Shown piece after piece: positions 11,186 to 25,434 of a DNA stretch of 64,000 nucleotides. Position 1 is the stretch's first letter. Each line of letters begins with the position of its first letter. A program made the translations under genes and the position numbers. The stretch lies in assembly GCA_964468315.1 (NCBI GenBank), contig CAYXTA010000001.1, forward strand, positions 64,277 to 128,276, in the 5' to 3' direction. The DNA is from an uncultured Candidatus Saccharibacteria bacterium (GTDB lineage Bacteria; Patescibacteriota; Minisyncoccia; Phycocordibacterales; UBA9973). The notes beneath the pieces were generated by a model. It was not told the DNA's origin and did no database searches. It saw nothing but the letters and a program-made list of their open reading frames with translations.

Positions 11186-11315
11186 TTATTTTCTTGTTAT
11201 TGTTTATAATCATTAGAGTTACCTCTAATTTACATATTATACTATAAATAAAAAATAGGGGAAAGTAAGCTTAGAAACTATATATTTGCCACATTTGGTA
11301 ATACTTCAAATGGCT

Positions 11316-11350
11316 CGAGCATTGACTTTTCACTTTTAATATGATATTAC
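11316..11350 (+). promoter_or_regulatory. Repeated promoter/operator-like box (copy 1 of 3): CATTGACTTTTCACTTTTAATATGATATTAC.
   Basis: Near-identical boxes at 12090-12125 and 13762-13797. TTGACT matches a sigma70 -35 hexamer, but the spacing to any -10 is ambiguous. Confidence 0.4.
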
Positions 11351-11385
11351 TTCATTAAGTAATCGCTCTTTTACATTCGTATTTG

Positions 11386-11426
11386 ATTGGTTTTCAGAGG
11401 AGATGCTGTCTCTTGTGGAAACCAAT
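11386..11426 (+). ncRNA. Conserved two-stem hairpin in the 5' leader (copy A) of the NADAR-HTH gene. A cis-regulatory RNA or an operator.
   Basis: ATTGGTTTTC CAGAGGAGATGCTGTCTCTTGTG GAAACCAAT. A 10-bp outer stem and a 6-bp inner stem. It ends 13 nt before the ATG and there is no SD. Confidence 0.5.
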
Positions 11427-11439
11427 TGAAACTAAAATA

Positions 11440-12012
11440 ATGGAAAATAAGAAAATTGACTCATTTAGCGAAGAGAATAGATTTCTCTCCAACTTCTGGC
11501 CCGTAGTCATTTGCTACGAGAATAGAATGTATCCAACAGTTGAACACGCGTATCAGGCTCAAAAGACAACTCAAGAGGAGAAACGACAAAAAGTTGCTGC
11601 TCTTATAACACCAGGCGAGGCTAAAAAATTTGGAGAAAATTTAAAGCGTCTTGGAAAAATACGTCCTGATTGGAGTGATGAATTGCGAATACAGCATATG
11701 ACAGCTTTGGTTGAAAGAAAGTTTTCTTTGAGTAATCTGGAATTGTCTCAAAAACTACTTGCAACTGGGGATATTGAACTTATTGAGGGTAATACCTGGG
11801 ACGATACCTTTTTCGGTGTTTGTAATGGGGAAGGAGAAAACCACTTGGGTAAAATCATTATGGCTACCAGAACAAAATTGAAGGCTGAAGTGCAAAAGAT
11901 AATGGATGCTTTAGTTAAGCATAATGGCAAGAGGCACGATGCTGCAAAGGATCTAAACATTGCGGAAAGGACACTGAGACTGCGCGAACAGGTATTTGGT
12001 ATTTTATATTGA
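11440..12012 (+). CDS. NADAR (YbiA/DUF1768) domain protein with a C-terminal Fis-type HTH.
   Basis: NADAR motifs: FLSNFWP, YPTVEHAYQAQK, LLATGDIELIEGNTWDDTFFGV. C-terminus: GKRHDAAKDLNIAERTLRLREQVFG, which resembles the Fis/NtrC HTH_8. I prefer the ATG at 11440 over the track start at 11383, which lies inside the hairpin. Confidence 0.7.
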   Translation: MENKKIDSFSEENRFLSNFWPVVICYENRMYPTVEHAYQAQKTTQEEKRQKVAALITPGEAKKFGENLKRLGKIRPDWSDELRIQHMTALVERKFSLSNLELSQKLLATGDIELIEGNTWDDTFFGVCNGEGENHLGKIIMATRTKLKAEVQKIMDALVKHNGKRHDAAKDLNIAERTLRLREQVFGILY

Positions 12013-12021
12013 GAAGCAATT

Positions 12022-12058
12022 AGGAGGTTAGAATATAATGTTCTAACCTCCTTTTTAT
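12022..12058 (+). terminator. Intrinsic terminator.
   Basis: Perfect 12-bp stem AGGAGGTTAGAA/TTCTAACCTCCT, followed by TTTTATTT. Confidence 0.6.
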
Positions 12059-12154
12059 TTACCCAAAATAACCATTCGAACATCTTCCCACGTTTAAAGT
12101 ATTGACTTTTAACTTTTAATATAGTACTTTAAGAAAAGTATTTGGTCTTTAACA

Positions 12155-12205
12155 TTGCATGTTTGATTGGTTACCAGAGAAGATTCTGTCTTTTGCGGTA
12201 ACCAA
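12155..12205 (+). ncRNA. Conserved two-stem hairpin (copy B) in the 5' leader of a membrane-protein gene.
   Basis: ATTGGTTACC AGAGAAGATTCTGTCTTTTGC GGTAACCAAT. The same architecture as copy A with compensatory substitutions. Confidence 0.5.
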
Positions 12206-12219
12206 TTAAAACTTAATAT

Positions 12220-12736
12220 TATGCTACAATTTGATTCACTTCTTCTAAAAAAATTCCAATCTTTTTCAGATTGGGTTTCAGTTACTTTTGGATTTAGTAA
12301 CTTCAAGGTTGCTAAATTGTTAATGATTTTATGTGTGATTGATACAGCCTGGGAGATTTATTTAAAAATCACCTACTGTAATATTGACCCAAAATCTTCT
12401 ATACCGGTGTTTAGTATCTTTTTTAGTTTACTATTCATTGTACTCTATGATTACACCATAAGGATTTGTGAGAAATTATCGGTTCTAAACTCAGGTACAA
12501 TCAATCCAGCTTACGTAATGTTACAACCTTGGCGATTCATGAAAATCGTTTTTATTTTCATGGGTATCACCCTATTAACAATAGATTTAACGGCGCATAT
12601 ATTTCTTACTCCATCTCCGTCTTTGAATCATGAGAAGGACCATATACATCACCTTACTGATATTTGTTACTTACTTTGGGATATATATAATCACAGCGTG
12701 TATTGTCTATTTAGTTTCTTGTTATACAAAACCTAA
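12220..12736 (+). CDS. Hypothetical membrane protein (about 4 TM).
   Basis: ATG at 12220, 14 nt after the hairpin. Hydrophobic segments. The track start at 12167 would overlap the structured element. Confidence 0.45.
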
Positions 12737-12842: not shown

Positions 12843-12873
12843 AACCCACTCAATTTTGAGTGGGTTTTTTTAT
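12843..12873 (+). terminator. Intrinsic terminator.
   Basis: AACCCACTCAATTTTGAGTGGGTT followed by TTTTTTT. Confidence 0.6.
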
Positions 12874-12960
12874 TTACCCAAAATCACTATTCGAACATCA
12901 TCCCACGTTCGGAGCAAAATTTTATCATTTTTGAGTCTTTTCTGTTAAAATATATTTATT

Positions 12961-13740
12961 ATGCGAATCGAGAAAAAAGTTTGGCCGGAATATTTCCAAC
13001 AAATTGTAGATAATAAAAAGACCTTTGAATTAAGGTTAAATGATTTTGATATATGTGAGGGAGATACTCTTGTTCTTAATGAGTGGGATCCAGCTACCAA
13101 GGACTTCACAGGAAGAACACTTGAAAAAAAAGTAGGTTATGTTGGTAAGTGGAAAATAGATGATCTTACAAAGTTTTTACCAAGGCAAGACATTGAGGAT
13201 AAAGGCCTTCAAGTTATTTCTATGAAAGACCAAAAATCCCCAATGTCAAAACTAATAATAATCCGTGGAAACTCTGGCTCAGGAAAGAGCACTATCGCAA
13301 AAGAACTGAGAGCAAGATTAGGCAAAGAAAAAACCGCCCTCATTGAGCAGGATTATTTACGTCGCCACGTACTTGGAGAGATAGGCAAAAGTGGCGATGA
13401 TAATGTTGAATTGATAGAATTGACTACAAGATTTGCTTTAGAGAAAAACTATTTAACTATAGTTGATGGCATAATGCCGTCAGAATATTATGGTGCTATG
13501 TTAAAAAGGCTGAATGATATAAATCCTAAAAATACACATATTTTTTACTTAGATATATCCTTAGAAGAAACACTTAAAAGACATACTACCAAACCAAATC
13601 GTAATGATTTTGGTGAACCAGAAATACGAGAATGGTACAGAAATAAAGATACATTAAAACTAGAAAACGAGACTGTAATTGACGAGAAATCAACTTTAGA
13701 AGAAAGTATAAAATTTATATTGGAGGTTATTAAATATTAG
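12961..13740 (+). CDS. Fusion protein: an N-terminal ASCH/PUA-like domain and a C-terminal P-loop kinase (AAA_33/zeta-like).
   Basis: N-terminus KKTFELRLNDFDICEGDTLVLNEWDP...GRTLEKKVGYV (small beta-barrel ASCH/DUF3850-like). C-terminus Walker A IIIRGNSGSGKSTIAKEL and Walker B-like YLTIVDG. Confidence 0.55.
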   Translation: MRIEKKVWPEYFQQIVDNKKTFELRLNDFDICEGDTLVLNEWDPATKDFTGRTLEKKVGYVGKWKIDDLTKFLPRQDIEDKGLQVISMKDQKSPMSKLIIIRGNSGSGKSTIAKELRARLGKEKTALIEQDYLRRHVLGEIGKSGDDNVELIELTTRFALEKNYLTIVDGIMPSEYYGAMLKRLNDINPKNTHIFYLDISLEETLKRHTTKPNRNDFGEPEIREWYRNKDTLKLENETVIDEKSTLEESIKFILEVIKY

Positions 13741-13913
13741 GGAATACTTCAAATAGCTCGAGCATTGACTTTTATATTTTAATATAGTACTTTAAGAAAA
13801 GTATTCGGTCTTTAACATCCTTTGTTTACCTATTGAATTACTCACTTTGCTTTTCAATTTTGGAAGTCAATGTGGGTAATTCAATAATCTATAAACTTTA
13901 AATAATAAAAAAA

Positions 13914-14387
13914 ATGACAAAAGTTGTAAAACTCTTCGGACTTGATGATCCAAGTGTAGATAATAATATTAAAATAATTGCTTTAACAGGAAAATGTATC
14001 GAATGGGCGATGGGTTTTCTGGGAGGGGATGATGATCCACTTACAGGTCTTATTATAGGAGATAAAGATTTCGATGACACGATTCTTCAAAAATTAAACA
14101 TATTTGAGACTGAGGAAGAAAAAATTAAAACAATCCTTCAAGATTTAAATAAACCGGATTCTGAATTTGAAGGAAAACTTATGAGCCTGGGTGAACTTAG
14201 TGGAAGAGAAGAGGATACCCATATTGAGATAATTGCTCTAGCAGCAAAAAATCTGGAATGGGAAATTGGTGTTCTCGCAGGAGAAGATGAACCAATCACA
14301 GGACTTATCCTCGGAGAAAAGGAATTTGTTAAAGCAACTCTTCGAAAATTGAATAAATTTGATTTGCTTTTTAAGGAGCAGAAATAA
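13914..14387 (+). CDS. Hypothetical protein made of two tandem homologous ~65-aa repeats.
   Basis: IKIIALTGKCIEWAMGFLGGDDDPLTGLIIGDKDFDDTILQKLN is repeated as IEIIALAAKNLEWEIGVLAGEDEPITGLILGEKEFVKATLRKLN. Confidence 0.45.
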   Translation: MTKVVKLFGLDDPSVDNNIKIIALTGKCIEWAMGFLGGDDDPLTGLIIGDKDFDDTILQKLNIFETEEEKIKTILQDLNKPDSEFEGKLMSLGELSGREEDTHIEIIALAAKNLEWEIGVLAGEDEPITGLILGEKEFVKATLRKLNKFDLLFKEQK

Positions 14388-17011: not shown

Positions 17012-17053
17012 CATGATTTTGCTAAATACTAAATTACCCAGAGCAATCTGGTA

Positions 17054-17080
17054 CCCCGATCTAACAAGATCGGGGTTTTT
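17054..17080 (+). terminator. Intrinsic terminator.
   Basis: CCCCGATCTAACAAGATCGGGG followed by TTTTT. Confidence 0.65.
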
Positions 17081-17173
17081 ATTTACCAAAAATCGTAATT
17101 TTAACATAATCCTACGTTTGAAGTCTTTAAAATATACCTTAATAGAAGTTCAAACTTGTGATATTATTGGTGT

Positions 17174-17655
17174 ATGAAAAAGTCATTAACTTTGTGTATG
17201 ATTCTTAAAGATAACCAGATACTCCTAGGTATGAAAAAAAGAGGATTTGGTGTTGGTAGATGGAATGGGTTTGGTGGAAAAGTTGATGAAGGTGAAACAA
17301 TAGAACAAGGAGCTATTCGTGAATTAAAAGAGGAGACTGGAATAGATGCTGTAAATATTAAAAAAGTTGGTATTTTGGATTTTTCATTTCAAAATGATAA
17401 TAAAATTTTAGAAGTTAATGTTTTTAAAGTTATAGATTTTATAGGAGAACCTACAGAAAGTGAAGAGATGAAACCACAATGGTTTTTTTTGATAAAATAC
17501 CATTTAGTCAAATGTGGACAGATGATATTCAATGGTTTCCATTTCTATTAAATAATAAATTATTTAGAGGAGAATTTTTATTTGATAGACCTTCTGATTC
17601 TGAATATTCTGCAAAAATAATTACTCAAAAACTAAATGAAGTTTCAAATTTTTAA
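17174..17655 (+). pseudogene. MutT/NUDT1(MTH1)-like Nudix hydrolase interrupted by a frameshift in a T8 homopolymer (17483-17490).
   Basis: Nudix box GGKVDEGETIEQGAIRELKEETGI in frame 1 ending at 17551. The adjacent frame continues DKIPFSQMWTDDIQWFPFLLNNKLFRGEFLF...QKLNEVSNF to 17655. From memory this matches the MTH1 C-terminus ([27 protein letters not shown]). Confidence 0.55.
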
Positions 17656-19114: not shown

Positions 19115-20398
19115 ATGAATAAAAATACTCAATTAATTTGGCGTACAGAAGTACGTAAAGTAGAAAGTCTTAAAACATGGAGTAAAAATCCTCGTAAATT
19201 AACAAAATCAGCATTTAAAACCTTAGTGGAAAGGATTGAGCAACGCGGTTTTCACGCAGTACTTGTAATTGATACAGATGACACGATTCTTTCAGGTAAT
19301 CAGAGAAAAAATGCACTTATACATTTAGGAATTACTGAAGTAACAGTGTTGGTTCCAAACCGTAAACTTACAGAAGATGAAAGAAAAAAGATTGCTTTAG
19401 AATCTAATTTAAATGATGGGGAATGGGATTTTTCAAAATTAAAATCTTTTAACATGGATCTGCTGAGTGATATAGGTTTCCCTGATTCAGATCTTTCAAA
19501 TATCTGGTCGGAAAATCTTGAAGCTGAAGATGATAACTTTGATGAAAAACTTGAACTGTCAAAAATTAAAGTTCCAAAAACTAAACTTGGAGATCTAATT
19601 ATTATGGGAAATCATAGATTAATTTGTGGAGATTCAACGGATCCTAAAGTTCTTAAAAAGTTATTCGGAAACGAGAAAGCATCTATGATATATTCTGATC
19701 CGATTTACAATATTAAAATAAATTATAGTAAAGGGATTGGAGGTAAACAAAAATATGGTGGAAATGTAAATGACAATCGTAGCTTTGAAGAATACAAAGA
19801 ATTTCTAAATAAAAGTTTAATTAGTGCACTTGCTGTATCAAAAGATGACCTTCATGTTTTTTACTGGAATGATCAGACAGGGATAGGAATTGTACAAGAT
19901 TTATATCGTGAACTTGGTATTGAAAACAAGCGAGTATGTTTGTGGATTAAAAATGGACAGAATCCTGTGCCGAGTGTGGCGTTTAATAAATGCTATGAAC
20001 CATGCATATATGGTGTAAAAGGACGACCATATATTTCTTCAAATTTACAAAACCTCAATGAGGTCATGAATAAAGAAATGACAACTGGTAATAGTCTTAT
20101 GGAAGAAACACTTGATCATCTTGATATTTGGACAGTGAAAAGATTGTCAGGTAAAGATTACGAACATGCTACAAGTAAACCTCCAAAACTTCACGAAAAA
20201 GCTATTCGTCGTTGCACTAAGCCTGGTGATATTATTCTAGATTCATTTTCAGGTTCTTCCAGCACACTTATTAGTGCTGAACAATTAAAACGTCGAGTAT
20301 ATGCTGTCGAGCTAGAAGAAGTATTTTGTGATTTGGCGATTCGCAGGTACGAAAAATTAACAGGTAATAAAGCAAAAATAATCCATGAAAAAAAATAA
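19115..20398 (+). CDS. ParB-like nuclease domain fused to a DNA N6-adenine/N4-cytosine methyltransferase (phage/plasmid type).
   Basis: N-terminal ParB/Srx-like region (GFHAVLVIDTDDTILSGNQRKNA). MTase motif IV SDPIYNI (DPPY-like) lies before motif I ILDSFSGSSST, the beta-class order. Confidence 0.7.
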   Translation: MNKNTQLIWRTEVRKVESLKTWSKNPRKLTKSAFKTLVERIEQRGFHAVLVIDTDDTILSGNQRKNALIHLGITEVTVLVPNRKLTEDERKKIALESNLNDGEWDFSKLKSFNMDLLSDIGFPDSDLSNIWSENLEAEDDNFDEKLELSKIKVPKTKLGDLIIMGNHRLICGDSTDPKVLKKLFGNEKASMIYSDPIYNIKINYSKGIGGKQKYGGNVNDNRSFEEYKEFLNKSLISALAVSKDDLHVFYWNDQTGIGIVQDLYRELGIENKRVCLWIKNGQNPVPSVAFNKCYEPCIYGVKGRPYISSNLQNLNEVMNKEMTTGNSLMEETLDHLDIWTVKRLSGKDYEHATSKPPKLHEKAIRRCTKPGDIILDSFSGSSSTLISAEQLKRRVYAVELEEVFCDLAIRRYEKLTGNKAKIIHEKK

Positions 20399-20792
20399 AA
20401 AGAAAGATGAGTTTTTAGAACAACTCAAAAAAGTTCCAATTGTTTTAGTTGCATGTGAAAAATCTGCACTCTCTCGCAATACTGTATATCGATGGCGAAA
20501 GGAAGATAATGAATTTTCTGTTGCAATGGATCAAGCCCTTAAAGAGGGCGAAGAATTAGTAAATGATATGACTGAAAGTCAGCTCTTAAGTATGATCAAA
20601 GATAAAGAATGGTCAGCTATTTCTTTTTGGCTTCGACATAGGAATCCAAAGTTTAGAGACAAGGTTGAACTCGTCGGAAATATTAACCATACCACTCGTG
20701 AATTAACTTCTGAAGACGAAGAACTACTTAAGGAAAGTCTTCGTCTTGCATTACCAACTAATCATAAACAAAATGATGAACCTAAATCCTAA
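20385..20792 (+). CDS. Putative terminase small subunit / HTH DNA-binding protein.
   Basis: HTH-like ALSRNTVYRWRKEDNEFSVAMDQALKEG. It sits immediately upstream of the terminase large subunit gene and overlaps it. Confidence 0.45.
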   Translation: MKKNKKKDEFLEQLKKVPIVLVACEKSALSRNTVYRWRKEDNEFSVAMDQALKEGEELVNDMTESQLLSMIKDKEWSAISFWLRHRNPKFRDKVELVGNINHTTRELTSEDEELLKESLRLALPTNHKQNDEPKS

Positions 20793-22230
20793 AGAAGAAG
20801 AGATTATCAAACATATGATTAAAGATCGTACCTTTCGATTAGCATTAGTTAAAAAAAGTCACTATTGGTTTTTCTATTATTACTTCGGACAAAAATATGC
20901 AAAGTATCCAACAGCAGATTTTCAACGTGAAATATTTAATATCACAGAAAATCCTGAATTAAAAAATATTGTAATCACAGCATTTCGTGGATCAGCTAAA
21001 TCTACGATTATTACCTTGTCTTATGTGATTTGGTCGATAGTCGGAATTAAACAAAAAAAGTTTCCAATAATTCTTGGTCGAACACAATTAAACACGCAAC
21101 CAAATCTTAATGCTATTAAGAAAGAATTAGAAGAAAACGATTTATTCAGAAAAGATTTTGGTCCATTTAAGGAAGAGGTTGATACTAATGGAACCACACA
21201 ATCTATTATTCTTCCTCAATACAATGCTCAGATATCAACACGTTCAATAGGGCAAAATATTAGAGGTATTAAACATTTGCAATACAGACCGGATTTAATT
21301 ATCGCTGACGACATAGAGGACTCTGATTCAATAAAAAGTCAGAAAAATAGAGATGAGTTATTTGATTGGCTAACTGGTGATGTCATTCCAGCAGGAGATC
21401 GTGATACTCAATTAATATTCATTGGTACACCACTTCATAATGATTCAATTCTAATGCGTTTAAAAGCATTATTTCAAAATGGAGATCCTAAAAATATTTA
21501 CCGTGAATTCCCAATTGTAGATGAAAATAATATTCCTTTATGGCTTGGAAAATTTAAGACACAAGAAGACATCGATAATGAGAGAAAAAAGTGTTTTAGT
21601 GAAATTATGTGGCAACGAGAGTATTTACTCAAGATTTTAGATAGTGAAGATCAAATAATTAAGCGAGAACATATTCATTATTACGAAGAATTACTAACTG
21701 GACATTGTCGTTTTTCTGCTACCGCTATTGATCCAGCACGTTCTCTTAAATCAACTGCTGATTATACTGCTATTGTTTCAGGAAAAATGTTTGAATATGA
21801 AAAGAATAGGAAATTATATATTATGCCTAATCCAATAAATGAACGTCTTACTACAGACCAACAAATACAAAAAGTAAAAAATATTTCGAAAGGATTAAAT
21901 AATAACGAAAGTTATTCCCGTGTATATGTTGAAGATGTTGGATTTCAAGGAGTCATTACTGATTTGTTAAAAAGTGAAGGAATTCCCGCAAAACCATTTC
22001 CTGTCCGAGGTTGGAGCAAAGAAGATCGTCTTATGTCCGTATCTTCACTTATTGAACTTGGGAGAGTGGTCTTTCCAAAGAAAGGAGCTGAAAAATTACT
22101 TGAACAAATTATTGGATTTGGGAAAGAATCACATGATGATCTGGTCGATGCTTGTACAATGTTAATATTTCAAGCTTTTGAAGATTCTAAAAAACCAAGA
22201 CCAAGAATTCAGAATATTTTTATTTATTAA
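20773..22230 (+). CDS. Phage terminase large subunit.
   Basis: Walker A-like FRGSAKSTIIT. Walker B/DE LIIADDIED. C-terminal RNaseH-like nuclease region (IDPARSLKSTADYTAIVSG...VEDVGFQG...HDDLVDA). The ATG at 20773 is preferred over the track start at 20746. Confidence 0.7.
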   Translation: MMNLNPKEEEIIKHMIKDRTFRLALVKKSHYWFFYYYFGQKYAKYPTADFQREIFNITENPELKNIVITAFRGSAKSTIITLSYVIWSIVGIKQKKFPIILGRTQLNTQPNLNAIKKELEENDLFRKDFGPFKEEVDTNGTTQSIILPQYNAQISTRSIGQNIRGIKHLQYRPDLIIADDIEDSDSIKSQKNRDELFDWLTGDVIPAGDRDTQLIFIGTPLHNDSILMRLKALFQNGDPKNIYREFPIVDENNIPLWLGKFKTQEDIDNERKKCFSEIMWQREYLLKILDSEDQIIKREHIHYYEELLTGHCRFSATAIDPARSLKSTADYTAIVSGKMFEYEKNRKLYIMPNPINERLTTDQQIQKVKNISKGLNNNESYSRVYVEDVGFQGVITDLLKSEGIPAKPFPVRGWSKEDRLMSVSSLIELGRVVFPKKGAEKLLEQIIGFGKESHDDLVDACTMLIFQAFEDSKKPRPRIQNIFIY

Positions 22231-22240
22231 TTAACAAATA

Positions 22241-22272
22241 AAAAAGACCTGTAGTTTATACAGATCTTTTTT
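22241..22272. terminator. Bidirectional terminator.
   Basis: AAAAAAGACCTGTAGTTTATACAGATCTTTTTT between convergent genes. Confidence 0.5.
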
Positions 22273-22289
22273 AAGTGCCAATTTAATTA

Positions 22290-22841
22290 TTAGTCTAGAT
22301 CTACTACTATTATTCCTCCTCCAAATAAACTTCCATTGTATTGGAATTGGAGACCTTTTGTGTTATTAGGTATTTCAAATCCAACCCAACCCGTACGCTT
22401 ACTATTTGCAATAACAGCACCATCAAGAGATTTGTTCATATTCTCTATAATTTTATCAGTAACACTTATTTGATAACTATTACCATCTGCGTCTCGTAAA
22501 AACATTTGTCCTAATGTTGTTATATATTGTTGTGTTGATCCGGTATTTTGAATAGTTATATTTAAATTAATATATTTATTACCAGTTGAAGGTTTTGCAA
22601 ATTCTGAACCTTGTGAAAATGAAACATTATTTACTGTGACTATTGAATCACCAAGTTGTATTTTATCTCCAACTTTGTAGGTTTGATTTTGTGATTGGAC
22701 TGTTGTTGTATCAGTGGTATTATTACTTCCAACTTTTTTAGGAGTAGAACTACCAGAACTAGCTATTATTAAAATAATAATTATCACAAGAATCCAAAAC
22801 CAAACTTTTTTATAAAATTTCTTTTTAGGAGTATTCTCCAT
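22290..22841 (-). CDS. Secreted/lipoprotein-like DUF4352-type beta-sandwich protein.
   Basis: N-terminal TM/signal. Ser/Thr-rich linker. A beta-rich domain (GDKIQLGDSIVTVNNVSF...YINLNITIQNTG...WVGFEIP) typical of the DUF4352 family, which is often next to phage genes. Confidence 0.5.
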   Translation of the reverse strand: MENTPKKKFYKKVWFWILVIIIILIIASSGSSTPKKVGSNNTTDTTTVQSQNQTYKVGDKIQLGDSIVTVNNVSFSQGSEFAKPSTGNKYINLNITIQNTGSTQQYITTLGQMFLRDADGNSYQISVTDKIIENMNKSLDGAVIANSKRTGWVGFEIPNNTKGLQFQYNGSLFGGGIIVVDLD

Positions 22842-22891
22842 AATATTTTCTTTTGCGTTTTATTATTTATAAATTCATGAAAATGAGACAC

Positions 22892-22982
22892 AAAAAGCTC
22901 ATCACATGAGTGAGGGTTTAAACCCTCCATATCCGTTTCCAGATACGGCCGTTGAAGACAAACCTCACATGATGAGCTTTTT
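22892..22982. repeat. 91-bp palindromic element with 13-bp terminal inverted repeats AAAAAGCTCATCA / TGATGAGCTTTTT and a nested perfect 16-bp palindrome GAGGGTTTAAACCCTC (22913-22928).
   Basis: Seen directly. It also contains a small CCGT...ACGG hairpin, and lies in the intergenic region upstream of the minus-strand DUF4352 gene. Confidence 0.55.
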
Positions 22983-23259
22983 ATCTTCAACGGACTTTTT
23001 ACCATGCCTTTATTGCTAAAGGTTTAGGCTACTTGTATTTAGTTGTAAATGAATAATACCATTCTCGACCATATTATTCAACGCCTCATTGTATCGCAAA
23101 CTCTTGAAATCACAGAGGATAGTTACCAACATATAAGACTATTCTTTAACATATCTTTTATACATTTACAAAATACCCATATCTTATATAATATGATTAA
23201 GTAAGTATGTCCTTATGGCTGTGTTCGACAGACTCGTTCATTAAAAAACATATAGAAAG

Positions 23260-23916
23260 ATGATAACTGAAAAGATTACATCAGACCAAGAGAAACAATT
23301 AACACGTTTCCTTGAAGACGCTATGCGTAAACTTGACCTATCAAAAGAGCAGGCTCAGGAAATTATTAAAAACGGTGGCAAAATGCAAGCCGAAGTGCGA
23401 GATGTATTGAATAAGTACTCAATAGCAGACAAACGCTTTACATGTGTAAACACCTTTGAAATTGTTGTACCTGCTAACTACAAGCATGAAACACGTTTGG
23501 ATTCATTTTTTAAAGAAAACAAGAAAAAGTTTTATTACTACAATAATGCTATTACTGACAAAAATTTTGCTAAAGCTACAACAAAATTGGAGCCAGGTAG
23601 AAAGTTTAAAGTGAAAGTATTCCAAATCAACAACATAATAACATTAACAGATTGTACAGATTTTTTAAAAAGTCAAAACGCAGTTTTAACTGGTGCCCAA
23701 GGAGCTTCGCTTGTTTACGAACAAAAGAAAGAGGAGTTAGTAAAAGGTAAATGGGCTATTTCTTTTGACGAAAAAGATTCGTTATGGAAAGATTCTAATG
23801 GTTACTTCAGGGTGCCTTATGTGTTCGCTCGCACAGATGGAGACTTCGAGTTCCTCCTTAGTCACTTTGGGATTGCCTGGGTTGAAGGTCGCTGTCTCTT
23901 GTGCTTCTGTGACTAA
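23260..23916 (+). CDS. Hypothetical protein.
   Basis: 218-aa ORF followed by a perfect 32-bp palindromic terminator. Confidence 0.45.
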   Translation: MITEKITSDQEKQLTRFLEDAMRKLDLSKEQAQEIIKNGGKMQAEVRDVLNKYSIADKRFTCVNTFEIVVPANYKHETRLDSFFKENKKKFYYYNNAITDKNFAKATTKLEPGRKFKVKVFQINNIITLTDCTDFLKSQNAVLTGAQGASLVYEQKKEELVKGKWAISFDEKDSLWKDSNGYFRVPYVFARTDGDFEFLLSHFGIAWVEGRCLLCFCD

Positions 23917-23971
23917 AAGTCCTTTGGCACTTTGTATCTTAAATCATCTTTTGCCTTTAATTCTTAAATTT

Positions 23972-24009
23972 GTCCCATTTACTTTATATAAAGTAAATGG
24001 GACTTTTTT
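23972..24009 (+). terminator. Intrinsic terminator built on a perfect 32-bp palindrome.
   Basis: GTCCCATTTACTTTATATAAAGTAAATGGGAC followed by TTTTTT. Confidence 0.7.
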
Positions 24010-24090
24010 GTTTTAATCTAACAAAAGTTACCAACACGTTACCAACGATCAAGCCTTAGCAAAAGGCTTTTTCTCTGTCATTAATTAGAT

Positions 24091-25434
24091 ATGGAGAAGA
24101 ATGCAATAGGGAAGATACACAATTCAATATCTGTATCAGAAGTTCGGATCAAGTACTGCCTATACGCCAGAAAATCGACAGAGCAAGATGAGAAACAAGC
24201 GCTATCAATAGATTCACAGGTAAAAGAAATGCTTCAAATTGCGGAGCGTGAAAATCTTAATGTCGTTGAAGTAAAAAGAGAATCGCATTCAGCAAAAGAT
24301 TCAGGAGAACGGCCAGTCTTTAAGGAAATATTGGAAGATCTACGATCAGAGAAATTCAATGGATTGCTCACATGGGCGCCGGACCGATTAAGTAGAAATG
24401 CAGGTGATCTTGGCTCGCTGGTAGATCTTATGGATCAGAAGAAATTAATCCATATACAAACGTATGGACAGACATTCAAGAATTCACCGAATGAAAAATT
24501 TCTCTTGATGATCTTGTGTTCTCAGGCAAAACTAGAGAATGACAATAAAAGTATTAATGTTAAAAGGGGATTACGGGCAAGAGTAGAGATGGGGTTATGG
24601 CCATGCCGTCCACCAACAGGATACTTCAAAGAGAAAAGAACAGATAGAAAATGTCAGTCAATATTCGATCCAGATCGAGCGCCGATCATAAAGCAGATAT
24701 TTGAAAAAGTAGGATATGATGGCTGGAGCGGAAGAAAGATATATCACTGGCTCAAGCATGAGATTAAATTCAAGACTGAATTTAATATGTTTCTGAGTTT
24801 GGGTAATCTCTATCGCATACTCGAAAATTCTTTCTATTACGGACGCTTTGAATTTCCGAAAGGATCAGGGAACTGGTACAACGGAGTGCATGAACCGATA
24901 ATCTCTAAAGAATTGTTTAATATCGTCCAAACACAGATCAAGAGCCAGATCTTAGAACCACGGTCACAGCAGAAAGAATTTGCCTTTACCAAGATCATGG
25001 CATGCGGATTATGTGGATCAGGAATAACGGCTGATGAAAAGTTCAAGAGATTAAAGAATGGCGGTGTGAATCGCCATGTCTATTACAAATGTACTAGGAT
25101 TAGAGATTCAAAATGTGAGTGCGGATTTATAAATGAAGAAGACCTGATTAAGCAATTACAGATTCTCATTGATGATCTTGAAATGCAGACGGTGCCAATG
25201 AGAGAGAAGATATCGGCTGAAGTGCAGCGATTCAAGAAATTCGAACAGATGCTCTTAGGTACAAAGACACCTATTACTGTAAAAGATATAGATATACGAA
25301 ACTATGCAAAGTTTATATTGCTAGAGGGGACCGTGGATGAGAAGAGGGAATTCTTGAGGTGTTTGAGGAGTGGGATTGTGTTGGAGAATAAGAAAATATC
25401 ACTTATTAAGCCTTCTCAATATATTTTGAAATAA
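24091..25434 (+). CDS. Large serine recombinase (serine integrase).
   Basis: N-terminal resolvase catalytic motif YARKSTEQDEKQALSIDSQ (Ser nucleophile). Recombinase domain. Zn-ribbon Cys cluster (CGLCGSG...YYKCTR...C). C-terminal coiled coil. Confidence 0.8.
   Translation: MEKNAIGKIHNSISVSEVRIKYCLYARKSTEQDEKQALSIDSQVKEMLQIAERENLNVVEVKRESHSAKDSGERPVFKEILEDLRSEKFNGLLTWAPDRLSRNAGDLGSLVDLMDQKKLIHIQTYGQTFKNSPNEKFLLMILCSQAKLENDNKSINVKRGLRARVEMGLWPCRPPTGYFKEKRTDRKCQSIFDPDRAPIIKQIFEKVGYDGWSGRKIYHWLKHEIKFKTEFNMFLSLGNLYRILENSFYYGRFEFPKGSGNWYNGVHEPIISKELFNIVQTQIKSQILEPRSQQKEFAFTKIMACGLCGSGITADEKFKRLKNGGVNRHVYYKCTRIRDSKCECGFINEEDLIKQLQILIDDLEMQTVPMREKISAEVQRFKKFEQMLLGTKTPITVKDIDIRNYAKFILLEGTVDEKREFLRCLRSGIVLENKKISLIKPSQYILK

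What the first reader, a model, noticed from the sequence alone, without database searches (positions are those of the whole stretch)
11440..12012. NADAR (YbiA-like) domain fused to a Fis-type HTH: a possible ADP-ribose-sensing regulator or DNA-ADP-ribosylation reversal factor
The N-terminus carries the NADAR hallmarks (FLSNFWP, YPTVEHAYQAQK, LLATGDIELIEGNTWDDTFFGV). The last ~30 aa (GKRHDAAKDLNIAERTLRLREQVFG) match the Fis/NtrC-type HTH_8 pattern. NADAR proteins are known as N-glycosidases of riboflavin intermediates and, more recently, as enzymes that remove ADP-ribose from guanine in DNA, acting as an antitoxin to DarT-type toxins. A fusion to a DNA-binding HTH is an unusual architecture. 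It suggests either a DNA-targeted ADP-ribosylguanine hydrolase or a ligand-sensing transcription factor. The conserved hairpin immediately upstream could be its operator.
Basis: partly seen in the sequence, partly recalled or inferred. Interest (0 to 1): 0.55.

Follow-up and report, generated by a model that had tools for sequence, protein, structure and literature searches.

The report
NADAR enzyme with DNA-binding tail
A small gene in a Nomurabacteria-like (candidate phyla radiation) genome really does fuse an intact NADAR ADP-ribose-removing enzyme to a Fis/NtrC-type DNA-binding helix-turn-helix, most likely to hold the enzyme on DNA, while the hairpin in front of it is a shared RNA leader of a shuffled gene cassette rather than its operator.

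Summary
Window 11440-12012 (+) encodes a 190-aa protein with a YbiA-class NADAR domain (Pfam E 2.5e-20). All three catalytic residues are invariant. The C-terminal 40 aa is an HTH_8 three-helix module: the tail alone scores 24.1 bits (cut-off 22), the AlphaFold model has pLDDT 95.8, and the tail superposes on the NtrC1 DNA-binding domain at 0.7 A. At least 25 protein clusters share this architecture, out of more than 24,000 NADAR clusters. None was found in cultured phages or in the literature searched.

No ADP-ribosyltransferase lies next to the gene in seven independent loci, and none was found among about 40 window proteins scanned. The gene is a free-standing cassette beside a prophage remnant.

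The upstream hairpin is real. It belongs to a 12-copy 5'-leader RNA family with compensatory and G.U covariation, and it precedes unrelated genes. It is absent from four other loci that carry the fusion gene. The operator idea is therefore not supported.

Best reading (inferred): a DNA-tethered hydrolase that removes ADP-ribose from nucleobases, acting as an orphan protective or counter-defence enzyme. The rivals are an ADP-ribose-responsive regulator or a small-molecule glycosidase. I rate it a new variant of a known kind, of moderate interest.

The parts
11440..12012 (+). Complete ORF of the NADAR-HTH_8 fusion protein (190 aa, stop codon included)
   Evidence: ORF and sequence; the homologues' N-termini align with the ATG at 11440; the exact protein is in public collections on 5+ contigs.
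11470..11883 (+). NADAR domain (residues 11-148), YbiA class. Catalytic codons: E35 = 11542-11544 (GAA), K42 = 11563-11565 (AAG), E116 = 11785-11787 (GAG).
   Evidence: Pfam PF08719 E 2.5e-20. phmmer against PDB: YbiA 2b3w 4.8e-13, NADAR 8bau 5.2e-5. Foldseek. E35, K42 and E116 are invariant in the 100-sequence alignment A3. Residue roles come from PMC11543638 (E88/K95/D171 of E. coli C7 NADAR) and PMC11125620 (a Glu in the last strand defines the YbiA family).
11887..11997 (+). Fis/NtrC-type HTH_8 module (residues 150-186): helix 1 continues the last NADAR helix, then come turn-helix 165-172 and recognition helix 176-186. The module is basic (tail pI 9.4).
   Evidence: the tail profile hits the HTH_8 consensus peptide 7zbs, NtrC1 4l5e and ZraR; tails have net charge +1 to +6 in all 13 homologues, while the NADAR cores are neutral to acidic.
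12022..12052 (+). Intrinsic terminator of the gene (14-bp stem followed by TTTTTATTT)
11381..11431 (+). It is a member of a 12-copy 5'-UTR RNA hairpin family.
   Evidence: Alignment A5 and RNAalifold give 21 pairs, 7 of them with compensatory changes. 97.1% of cells are paired against 37-54% when the partners are slid, and 0/500 shuffles reach the observed value. Covariance model R1 scores sense 76 bits against antisense 35 bits, and it finds two copies in L213 that were not used to train it. There is no Rfam match.
11346..11363 (+). Leader hairpin hp1 (ATTACTT-catt-AAGTAAT). A different sequence forms a hairpin at the same place in the sister copies (TACTTT-aaga-AAAGTA).
11321..11342 (+). Conserved box P (ATTGACTTTTCACTTTTAATAT). 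It reads as a -35 TTGACT, a 17-nt spacer and an extended -10 TGaTATTAC, so it is the putative cassette promoter. It recurs at 12101 and 13764.
   Evidence: 3 exact copies, and 6 matches at up to 3 mismatches against 0.78 expected; two copies in L001. The consensus promoter scan did not call it, so promoter function is inferred.
11281..11312 (+). A -10-like TATATT followed by the hairpin CATTTG-gtaatactt-CAAATG. It occupies the position that element E holds in sister cassettes.
12075..12098 (+). Decayed copy of element E (TTCGAAC-ATCTTCCCAC-GTTTAAA) between the terminator and the next box P. It marks the 3' boundary region of the cassette.
11317..12112 (+). The exchangeable cassette: box P, leader, NADAR-HTH gene, terminator, E, and the start of the next box P.
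   Evidence: L213 (protein 96% identical) shares exactly window 11317-12112 at 94.4% nt identity, and the flanking genes are unrelated.

Best explanation
The gene encodes a two-domain enzyme. The first domain is a catalytically intact YbiA-class NADAR N-glycosidase (ADP-ribosyl glycohydrolase). Its last helix runs straight into a basic Fis/NtrC-type three-helix HTH_8 module. The domain composition, the conserved active site and the confident HTH fold are shown.

The rest is inferred. The HTH anchors the enzyme on double-stranded DNA, so that the NADAR active site can remove ADP-ribose from nucleobases (guanine N2 being the documented NADAR substrate). In this it would play the same role as the basic N-terminal extension of DarT1-associated NADARs, achieved by a different appendage.

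The gene has no partner toxin. It is a self-contained cassette with its own promoter-like box, structured 5' leader and terminator. It sits in a shuffled array of small accessory genes next to a prophage remnant in a Candidatus Nomurabacteria-like genome. It therefore most likely acts as an orphan protective or counter-defence factor against DNA ADP-ribosylating toxins that come from elsewhere (host bacterium, competitors, phage or defence systems), comparable to the orphan phage NADARs (AdfN).
For: Domains and fold. The catalytic residues E35, K42 and E116 are invariant in 100 relatives and map onto the residues shown by mutagenesis to be needed for guanine-ADPr hydrolysis and DarT1 rescue (PMC11543638). 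All NADAR and YbiA proteins tested so far hydrolyse ADPr-guanine in DNA (PMC11125620, PMC11257639).

The tail is basic in all 13 close homologues, while the cores are neutral or acidic. The recognition helix keeps the NtrC-family 'S-x-R-T-L-Y-R' signature.

The fusion is conserved: there are 13 clusters at 90% identity and 12 further 50%-identity representatives. All 25 fall within one NJ sub-tree of 50 leaves, out of 172 sequences.

DNA-binding extensions are already proposed to decide which NADARs act on DNA (PMC11543638, PMC11125620). The neighbourhood is mobile and phage-like: large terminase (E 1e-77), ParB-methylase, serine recombinase and two NUDIX genes. Orphan phage NADARs that neutralise DarT1 are documented (PMC11257639).
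Against: No activity or DNA binding has been measured. No ADP-ribosyltransferase was found in the 64-kb window or next to any homologue, so the threat it would counter is unknown.

The YbiA class (Glu in the last strand) also includes enzymes that act on small molecules (riboflavin intermediates), and E. coli YbiA did not rescue cells from YarT toxicity (PMC11125620).

Several divergent members of the clade have acidic residues in the putative recognition helix and no Pfam HTH call, so DNA binding may not be universal.

The neighbouring cassettes (NUDIX, isochorismatase; Ham1 and glyoxalase in L001) look like metabolite house-cleaning enzymes. That would fit a small-molecule role as well.
Confidence: 0.45

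Rival explanations
1. It is a bifunctional or ligand-responsive transcription factor. The NADAR domain binds or turns over ADP-ribose or a related metabolite. The HTH_8, as a dimer, binds an operator to autoregulate the gene or to control the cassette array that shares box P and the leader. This would be analogous to NrtR (Nudix domain plus winged HTH, with ADP-ribose as effector) or to enzyme-repressors such as BirA and NadR.
For: In all characterised proteins HTH_8 is a sequence-specific DNA-binding domain of regulators (one search hits: NtrC1, ZraR and other sigma-54 activators, and a Fis-like protein). An enzyme-like sensor joined to an HTH has a precedent in NAD metabolism (NrtR, PMC2330246). 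The same box P and leader stand in front of several genes in the genomes that carry the fusion (window x3, L001 x2, L213 x2, L005). The long helix 135-160 could mediate dimerisation.
Against: The catalytic residues are strictly conserved, unlike many sensor-only domains. No palindrome or motif is shared by the upstream regions of the seven independent loci. The shared hairpin covaries as RNA, with G.U pairs and strand asymmetry. The leader family is absent upstream of the fusion gene in L003, L005, L008, L009 and L010. There is no evidence of dimerisation.
Confidence: 0.2
2. It is a small-molecule house-cleaning glycosidase. It would act on YbiA-like substrates, or on free ADP-ribose derivatives and immune signalling nucleotides. 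The HTH tail would be accessory, serving localisation to the nucleoid, weak autoregulation or structural stabilisation.
For: It belongs to the YbiA class (Glu116). The riboflavin-intermediate glycosidase model TIGR02464 hits at E 1.6e-16. Neighbouring cassettes encode NUDIX hydrolases, an isochorismatase and, in L001, Ham1, glyoxalase and SDR enzymes. Iyer et al. argue that phage NADARs mainly target soluble ADPr derivatives (PMC9503650).
Against: The TIGR02464 score is below its cut-off (60.9 against 73.7). No riboflavin genes were seen among the window proteins scanned, and candidate phyla radiation genomes generally lack the pathway (general knowledge, not tested here). A conserved basic DNA-binding module on a soluble-metabolite enzyme has no obvious purpose. 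All NADARs tested experimentally are active on ADPr-DNA (PMC11125620, PMC11257639).
Confidence: 0.2
3. The tail is a structural helical cap that merely resembles an HTH and binds no nucleic acid, or binds a protein partner instead.
For: A pTM of 0.90 suggests the tail has a fixed position relative to the core. Divergent members carry Glu or Asp in the third helix and lack a Pfam HTH call. Close relatives at about 60% identity lack the tail altogether (P0012, P0015).
Against: 11 of 13 tails reach HTH_8 with E values down to 3.8e-10. The tail superposes at 0.7-0.8 A on bona fide DNA-binding domains. The tails carry a consistent positive charge.
Confidence: 0.1

Closest known systems
E. coli YbiA and the YbiA family of the NADAR superfamily (PDB 2b3w)
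   Same: Same fold (Foldseek E 7.7e-7, TM 0.67-0.75). Same catalytic set, including the family-defining Glu in the last strand (E116). It is a 'naked' core with no N-terminal extension.
   Different: YbiA has no C-terminal HTH. Sequence identity is about 29%. The riboflavin-glycosidase equivalog model is not reached.
DarT1-associated NADAR antitoxins (DarG1; E. coli C7 and Geobacter lovleyi NADAR; PMC11543638)
   Same: A NADAR hydrolase proposed here to work on ADP-ribosylated DNA. It carries an extra basic appendage that could bind DNA.
   Different: Those proteins belong to the BC4488 family (Asp in the last strand), carry an N-terminal beta-beta-alpha extension and are encoded next to DarT1. 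The protein here has Glu, a C-terminal HTH_8 and no adjacent transferase.
Orphan phage NADARs: AdfN (T4 gp30.3), NADAR-Bas32 and NADAR-Bas60 (PMC11257639)
   Same: A stand-alone NADAR gene in a mobile or phage-like context with no cognate toxin. Its relatives are abundant in phages (457 phage records; PHROG 1017 E 5.8e-38).
   Different: AdfN-type proteins have His in the last strand, and the window protein gave no hit to the Phage_30_3 model PF08010. None of the phage homologues found covers the HTH tail.
Myxobacterial YbiA-YarT toxin-antitoxin pair (PMC11125620)
   Same: A YbiA-class NADAR acting as protection against an ADP-ribosyltransferase.
   Different: That YbiA is a bare domain encoded beside its toxin. 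Here there is no neighbouring toxin and there is an added HTH.
DNA-binding domains of NtrC1/NtrC4/ZraR, and Fis (Pfam HTH_8)
   Same: Same three-helix fold (rmsd 0.7-2.5 A) and the same sequence signature, G-x-[KR]-x-x-A-A-x-x-L-x-I-S-x-R-T-L-Y-R.
   Different: Those domains sit at the C-terminus of AAA+ sigma-54 activators, or after the Fis dimerisation helices. Here the domain is fused to an enzyme, and neither an AAA+ domain nor the Fis N-terminal region is present.
NrtR (Nudix-like domain plus winged HTH, ADP-ribose effector; PMC2330246)
   Same: An ADP-ribose-recognising enzyme fold fused to a C-terminal DNA-binding domain. This is the model for the regulator reading.
   Different: Both folds are unrelated (Nudix and winged helix). 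NrtR has known operators upstream of NAD genes, and none is seen here.
PeSL (promoter-early stem-loop) cassettes of T4-type phages (PMC2839356, PMC4122927)
   Same: Conserved composite terminator, promoter and stem-loop modules flank small accessory ORFs. The differences between related genomes start and end in the module (window against L213).
   Different: PeSLs were described in T4-type phage hyperplastic regions. Here the modules lie in a chromosome or prophage remnant of a candidate phyla radiation bacterium, they have different sequences, and they include a roughly 100-nt structured leader and element E.

Membership tests
NADAR superfamily (PF08719) | Significant match to the family profile above the curated cut-off | tested here: met
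   73.8 bits against a cut-off of 35.1, E 2.5e-20
NADAR superfamily (PF08719) | YbiA fold (helical core flanked by two small sheets) | tested here: met
   AF2 model pLDDT 95.8. Foldseek: 2b3w E 7.7e-7, 8bau E 2.4e-4.
NADAR superfamily (PF08719) | Catalytic Glu and Lys of the E-H-x-x-Q-x-x-K helix (E88/K95 in E. coli C7 NADAR) | tested here: met
   E35 and K42 are invariant in A3. They align with YbiA and 8bau. Residue roles come from PMC11543638.
YbiA family (as opposed to BC4488/DarG1 and phage gp30.3) | Glutamate (not Asp or His) in the last beta-strand | tested here: met
   E116 in L-I-E-G-N is invariant. The criterion comes from PMC11125620.
Riboflavin-intermediate N-glycosidase equivalog (TIGR02464) | Score above the curated equivalog cut-off | tested here: not met
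   60.9 bits against a cut-off of 73.7
DarTG1 toxin-antitoxin system (NADAR antitoxin) | Encoded adjacent to a DarT1 ADP-ribosyltransferase | tested here: not met
   No ART domain appears in the neighbours of 7 loci or in about 40 window proteins. PADLOC gives only a weak PDC-M42C hit.
DarTG1 toxin-antitoxin system (NADAR antitoxin) | Asp in the last strand and a basic N-terminal extension | tested here: not met
   The residue is Glu116, and the protein starts 10 residues before the core.
Phage AdfN / gp30.3 (PF08010) | Match to the Phage_30_3 profile; His in the last strand | tested here: not met
   The window protein gives no PF08010 hit at E<=1. Relatives give only faint sub-threshold hits. 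The last-strand residue is Glu.
HTH_8 (PF02954, Fis/NtrC-type HTH) | Profile match above the cut-off | tested here: met
   The whole protein scores 20.2 bits (<22), but the tail alone scores 24.1 bits, and 11/13 homologous tails match, the best at 3.8e-10. A tail profile hits the HTH_8 consensus peptide and NtrC1 in the PDB.
HTH_8 (PF02954, Fis/NtrC-type HTH) | Three-helix fold superposable on solved HTH_8 domains | tested here: met
   4l5e rmsd 0.7 A over 40 columns; 2m8g 0.8 A over 42; NtrC4 and Fis 2-2.5 A
HTH_8 (PF02954, Fis/NtrC-type HTH) | Binds DNA | not testable with these tools
   The only evidence is indirect: a basic tail and a conserved R-T-L-Y-R motif.
Sigma-54 enhancer-binding proteins (NtrC family) | Central AAA+ sigma-54 interaction domain | tested here: not met
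   Only NADAR and HTH_8 are found in 190 aa.
NrtR-type ADP-ribose-responsive repressors | Nudix-like effector domain plus winged HTH, with conserved operators upstream of target genes | tested here: not met
   The folds are different, and no shared upstream palindrome occurs in the 7 loci.
PeSL-like mobile regulatory cassettes | A conserved terminator/promoter/stem-loop motif flanks small ORFs, and indel or exchange breakpoints between related genomes fall in the motif | tested here: met
   Repeated modules. The block shared by the window and L213 is exactly 11317-12112, from box P to box P.
PeSL-like mobile regulatory cassettes | Located in hyperplastic regions of T4-type phages, with early-promoter activity | tested here: not met
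   The host is a Nomurabacteria-like contig. The pattern was not found in IMG/VR. Promoter activity cannot be tested here.
Integron gene cassette (attC) | attC with RYYYAAC ... GTTRRRY cores, 57-141 nt; a nearby IntI integrase | tested here: not met
   Element E is a 24-nt hairpin, TTCGAAC-N10-GTTCGGA. The only recombinase nearby is a large serine recombinase.

The most novel reading that the evidence does not exclude
The NADAR-HTH protein is the regulator, or a sensor-effector, of a previously undescribed mobile cassette system in candidate phyla radiation genomes. The system consists of arrays of single-gene cassettes. Each cassette is bounded by a conserved module: a -10 box, the E hairpin, box P and a structured leader (hp1/hp2). 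The cassettes are shuffled between strains by recombination in these modules. The HTH_8 would bind box P or the GTTCGAAC-type palindromes and couple cassette expression to ADP-ribose or ADP-ribosylated DNA. Even without that regulatory link, the hp2 leader and element E would be new RNA or DNA motifs, and the arrays would be a bacterial counterpart of phage PeSL shuffling.
Probability: 0.12. Interest if true: 0.7.

Novelty: new variant of a known kind. Interest (0 to 1): 0.42.

Why it matters
NADAR enzymes were shown only in 2023-2024 to reverse ADP-ribosylation of DNA bases. What decides whether a given NADAR acts on DNA or on small molecules is still open, and appendages to the YbiA core are the main suspects. 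A clade in which the bare YbiA-type core has acquired a bona fide Fis/NtrC DNA-binding module is a natural experiment on that question, and it is easy to test: compare the protein with and without its 40-residue tail.

It would also extend DNA ADP-ribosylation conflicts to candidate phyla radiation bacteria, which are episymbionts exposed to the toxins of their hosts.

The cassette context is a separate point of interest. Conserved promoter/leader/hairpin modules, exchanged as units between strains, suggest how these tiny genomes trade accessory genes. They also supply an uncatalogued 5'-leader RNA motif.

Tried and rejected
1. I scanned genome contigs with the 22-nt box P pattern. The pattern was too AT-rich and degenerate: it gave 119+ chance hits, none carrying the extended leader. 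The taxon was obtained instead from exact-protein look-ups.

2. I scanned viral contigs for element E, box P plus hp1, and the hp2 core. The first two found nothing. The third gave chance hits only, and none matched covariance model R1.

3. The afdb50 fold library was not available. The viral fold library showed only NADAR cores. The best long hit, an Aeromonas phage protein, has a non-HTH C-terminal extension.

4. Rfam gave no family for hp1, hp2 or E at either the gathering or the E-value threshold. Group I introns and tRNAs near some E copies do not overlap them.

5. A leader peptide inside hp2 was rejected. The start codon is not conserved (ATG, ATT, CTT/TTG) and an indel shifts the frame in L005.

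6. Element E as a tRNA 3' half or as an attC was rejected on sequence geometry (see the notebook). Its nature remains unresolved.

7. I searched the upstream regions of seven loci for a shared operator palindrome and found none.

8. Literature searches for NADAR with HTH or helix-turn-helix found no description of this fusion.
Full report
**1. The observation**

Window 11440-12012 (+) is an ORF of 190 codons. The mechanical ORF list starts it at a TTG at 11383. The N-termini of all homologues, however, align with the ATG at 11440, and the extra codons lie inside a leader hairpin.

Pfam gives NADAR (PF08719) at E 2.5e-20 over residues 11-148. It gives HTH_8 (PF02954) at E 5e-4 and 20.2 bits over residues 150-182, just under the curated cut-off of 22. 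The marginal HTH call was then tested in four ways.

- The 43-residue tail scanned alone reaches 24.1 bits. Of 13 homologous tails, 11 hit HTH_8, the best at 3.8e-10.
- A profile of the 13 tails finds the designed HTH_8 consensus peptide (7zbs), the NtrC1 DNA-binding domain (4l5e), a sigma-54 regulator (7vbs) and ZraR in the PDB.
- An AlphaFold2 model built on a 100-sequence alignment has mean pLDDT 95.8 and pTM 0.90. A long helix at 135-160 is followed by helices at 165-172 and 176-186.
- In Foldseek the core matches E. coli YbiA (2b3w, E 7.7e-7) and Phytophthora NADAR (8bau). The tail superposes on NtrC1 (rmsd 0.7 A over 40 columns), 2m8g (0.8 A), NtrC4 and Fis.

**2. Is the enzyme intact, and which NADAR is it?**

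Mutagenesis of E. coli C7 NADAR showed that E88, K95 and D171 are needed for guanine-ADPr hydrolysis and for rescue from DarT1 (PMC11543638). The residue in the last strand separates the families: Glu in YbiA, Asp in the DarT1-linked BC4488 family and His in phage gp30.3 (PMC11125620).

Here the equivalents are E35 and K42, with the same 7-residue spacing in V-E-H-A-Y-Q-A-Q-K, and E116 in L-I-E-G-N. All three are invariant in the 100-sequence alignment and align with YbiA and 8bau. The protein is therefore a YbiA-class NADAR with a complete active site.

It does not reach the equivalog cut-off of the riboflavin-intermediate glycosidase model TIGR02464 (60.9 against 73.7 bits). It gives no hit to the phage gp30.3 model.

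**3. How common is the fusion?**

Among the 120 best of 5,493 hits in the 90%-identity collection, 12 clusters besides the window's own have the same 184-191-aa architecture. Their tail consensus is G-K-R-K-x-A-A-x-E-L-G-I-S-E-R-T-L-Y-R-Y-I-x-x-F. The other relatives listed are mostly shorter, typically 137-160 aa, and stop after the NADAR core.

A profile of the 13 fused proteins, searched against 1.84 billion 50%-identity representatives, found 24,211 NADAR proteins. Among the top 150, 13 match through profile position 184-186, and 12 of those are new. Some carry further unknown domains: P0159 and P0166 share a roughly 70-aa module, C-terminal in one and N-terminal in the other, and P0162 and P0163 share a roughly 100-aa C-terminal module.

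In a crude neighbour-joining tree of the NADAR cores, all 25 fused proteins fall in one sub-tree of 50 leaves out of 172, interleaved with tail-less relatives. This fits one or a few fusion events followed by losses, or limited resolution of the tree.

No phage record among 457 with a NADAR homologue covers the tail. The best long viral structure hit has an unrelated C-terminal extension. Full-text searches for NADAR together with HTH or helix-turn-helix found no description of this architecture.

**4. Genomic context**

Exact-sequence look-ups place the window on a 158,632-bp NCBI contig. Its ATP synthase beta subunit clusters at 90% identity or more with Candidatus Nomurabacteria MAG proteins. 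A LOOT RNA is also present.

Around the gene lie:
- an isochorismatase, several unknown small proteins and a membrane protein;
- a DUF3850/ASCH-P-loop kinase fusion and two NUDIX genes;
- a ParB-DNA methylase, small and large terminase subunits (PHROG 38, E 1e-77) and a large serine recombinase.

This is an accessory region beside a prophage remnant.

About 40 window proteins were scanned against Pfam and ten against PADLOC. No ADP-ribosyltransferase and no known defence system was found.

Seven independent loci with fusion homologues were fetched: L001, L003, L005, L008, L009, L010 and L213. The first five are AT-rich, and L010 is GC-rich. In all of them the gene stands alone. The neighbours differ every time and there is no transferase. 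A toxin-antitoxin pairing of the DarT1-NADAR or YarT-YbiA type is therefore not seen.

**5. The upstream hairpin and the cassette**

The 101-nt leader folds at -30.3 kcal/mol, z-score -4.96. It is not specific to this gene.

A roughly 120-nt block recurs at 12101 in front of a membrane-protein gene, and in part at 13764. It consists of box P (ATTGACTTTTnnnTTTTAATAT), hairpin hp1, the motif CTCTTTnAnAT, hairpin hp2 and the ATG. The block also occurs twice in L001, a genome whose fusion protein is only 59% identical, at up to 96.6% nucleotide identity over 87 nt, or 90.4% over 115 nt.

Twelve hp2 copies were found on seven distinct contigs: window x2, L001 x2, L154 x3, L151, L005, L152 and L213 x2. 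The evidence that hp2 is an RNA structure is as follows.

- RNAalifold predicts 21 pairs, 7 of them with compensatory double changes. One G.U pair is invariant, and another pair alternates among G.U, A.U and G.C.
- 97.1% of cells are paired, against 37-54% when partners are slid by 1-3 columns. No shuffle out of 500 reaches the observed values.
- A covariance model scores the sense strand at 76 bits and the antisense strand at 35 bits. It recognised the two L213 copies, which were not used to build it.

This is the signature of an RNA structure in the 5' UTR, not of a protein operator.

The genes behind hp2 are unrelated. They are three NADAR-HTH genes (two independent), a membrane protein, lipoprotein-like proteins and small unknown proteins. 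Conversely, hp2 is absent upstream of the fusion gene in L003, L008, L009 and L010, and from the fusion gene's own upstream region in L005. No palindrome is shared by the seven upstream regions. The 'operator' suggestion is not supported.

Downstream of the gene comes a strong terminator (12022-12052). It is followed by a T-rich stretch and element E, a 24-nt hairpin TTCGAAC-N10-GTTCGGA followed by GCA. A metagenome scan found E on 77 contigs, of which about 40 distinct copies lie in AT-rich contigs like those of candidate phyla radiation bacteria.

A box y-A-w-w-A-T sits at a fixed 5-nt distance upstream of E (A 34/40, A 39/40, T 29/40). This is the geometry of a -10 hexamer that would start transcription at the hairpin. 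In front of the NADAR-HTH gene the same position is held by a different hairpin (11292-11312), preceded by TATATT. In L001 it is held by the 3' end of a real tRNA-Asn gene. I could not settle what E is (see the notebook).

What is clear is the cassette behaviour. L213 encodes a 96%-identical NADAR-HTH. It shares with the window exactly 11317-12112 at 94.4% nucleotide identity, that is, from box P to the next box P. The genes on both sides are different. This matches the logic of the promoter-early stem-loop (PeSL) cassettes that mediate modular shuffling in T4-type phages (PMC2839356, PMC4122927), although the sequences and the host are different.

**6. How it most likely works**

Shown:
- an intact YbiA-class NADAR active site;
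- a confidently folded, basic HTH_8 fused through a continuous helix;
- conservation of the fusion;
- a stand-alone, mobile cassette context with no partner toxin.

The tails have net charge +1 to +6 and pI 8.0-10.2 in all 13 close homologues, while the cores are neutral to acidic.

Established knowledge:
- Every NADAR or YbiA tested hydrolyses ADP-ribose from guanine in DNA (PMC11543638, PMC11125620, PMC11257639).
- Protection in cells depends on features outside the core. DarT1-linked NADARs carry a basic N-terminal extension proposed to bind DNA (PMC11543638).
- Orphan phage NADARs neutralise DarT1 (PMC11257639).

Inference: the HTH_8 is a different solution to the same need. It tethers the hydrolase to duplex DNA so that ADP-ribosylated bases are cleared. 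The gene then acts as an orphan protective or counter-defence factor for the bacterium or its prophage. I put this at about 0.45.

The main rival is a regulator of the NrtR or BirA kind (0.2). It is favoured by the fact that HTH_8 domains are otherwise found in regulators, and by the shared box P. It is disfavoured by the strict conservation of the active site, the absence of any shared operator, and the RNA nature of the shared hairpin.

A small-molecule house-cleaning role with an accessory tail (0.2) fits the NUDIX, isochorismatase and Ham1 neighbours but leaves the DNA-binding module unexplained. A purely structural tail is least likely (0.1).

**7. Comparison with known families, and novelty**

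The protein is a member of the NADAR superfamily and of its YbiA family, and its tail is a member of HTH_8. It is not a DarG1-type antitoxin, because it has no DarT, has Glu rather than Asp, and has no N-terminal extension. It is not an AdfN/gp30.3 protein, an NtrC-type activator (no AAA+ domain) or an NrtR.

It may work like a DarG1 or AdfN enzyme with a built-in DNA anchor. The architecture exists in public protein collections, where some entries carry precomputed PF02954+PF08719 hits. It appears undescribed in the literature searched. I rate it a new variant of a known kind.

Interest is moderate (0.42). The prediction is sharp and easy to test, and it bears on the open question of NADAR substrate targeting, but it does not overturn anything.

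The cassette modules (the hp2 leader RNA, element E and box-P-to-box-P exchange) are the less expected part of this locus and deserve their own follow-up.

Noticed in passing
window 11281-11440, 12052-12220, 12843-12960, 13736-13913, 17050-17173; L001 7326-8000 and 8590-10170; L213 intergenic regions: This is an array of single-gene cassettes bounded by conserved non-coding modules: a terminator, a T-rich stretch, a -10-like box, the E hairpin, box P, and a leader with hairpins hp1 and hp2. The modules are up to about 96% identical between genomes whose proteins are only about 59% identical. In related strains the shared DNA runs exactly from box P to box P, which is PeSL-like modular shuffling.
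   Followed up: partly
window 11381-11431 and 12161-12211; L001 7457-7507 and 7941-7995; L154 x3; L151; L005 5335-5403; L152; L213 x2: hp2 is a roughly 50-nt 5'-UTR hairpin family of 12 copies. It shows compensatory and G.U covariation and strong strand asymmetry, and it has no Rfam match. It precedes unrelated small accessory genes and contains a conserved AGGAG-like stretch about 45 nt upstream of SD-less start codons.
   Followed up: yes
window 12890-12914 (good copy), 12075-12098 and about 17095 (decayed copies); 77 metagenome loci L130-L206: Element E is TTCGAAC-ATCnTCCCAy-GTTCGGA-GCA. It is highly conserved across many AT-rich contigs like those of candidate phyla radiation bacteria, and a -10-like box yAwwAT precedes it at a fixed distance. 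In L001 a tRNA-Asn 3' end occupies the equivalent position before box P. Its nature is unresolved: it could be a 5' stabiliser hairpin, a processing signal, a small RNA or an operator.
   Followed up: partly
window 19115-25434: This looks like a prophage remnant or satellite-like block. It holds a ParB-N6/N4 DNA methylase, a small terminase-like protein, a large terminase (PHROG 38, E 1e-77), a DUF4352 protein, a LOOT RNA (22912-23030, minus strand, 90.5 bits) and a large serine recombinase (24091-25434). No portal or capsid genes follow the terminase.
   Followed up: partly
window 17174-17655: The NUDIX (MutT-like) gene appears interrupted. The ORF ends at 17551, soon after a T8 run ('tggttttttttg'), and NUDIX-like sequence seems to continue in another frame to about 17655. 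This could be a frameshift, a pseudogene or a homopolymer sequencing error.
   Followed up: no
window 12961-13740: This gene fuses a DUF3850/ASCH-like PUA-fold domain (E 4e-17) to a P-loop kinase (AAA_33/APS-kinase-like). The members of its 90% cluster are mostly 90-aa ASCH-only proteins, so the kinase fusion is unusual.
   Followed up: no
window 13914-14387: A 157-aa protein of unknown family is built from two internal repeats (…IIALTGKCIEWAMGFLGGDDDPLTGLIIGDKDF… and …IIALAAKNLEWEIGVLAGEDEPITGLILGEKEF…). It has its own box P and leader. A 157-aa gene also follows the NADAR cassette region in L213.
   Followed up: no
proteins P0159, P0166, P0162, P0163 (relatives, not in the window): Some NADAR-HTH relatives carry further unknown domains. 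P0159 and P0166 share a roughly 70-aa module (…GxxGxNSAxxLIGxxxAI…RRxLGSxxTYP…), C-terminal in the first and N-terminal in the second. P0162 and P0163 share a roughly 100-aa C-terminal module (…DDSRExxSEGLEW…VAWKL). Pfam gives no hit to either.
   Followed up: partly
L151 3504-3722 and L159 1562-1797: Group I introns (Rfam RF00028, 61-69 bits) lie within about 1 kb of element E copies on two metagenome contigs. They do not overlap E, and any relation is unknown.
   Followed up: no
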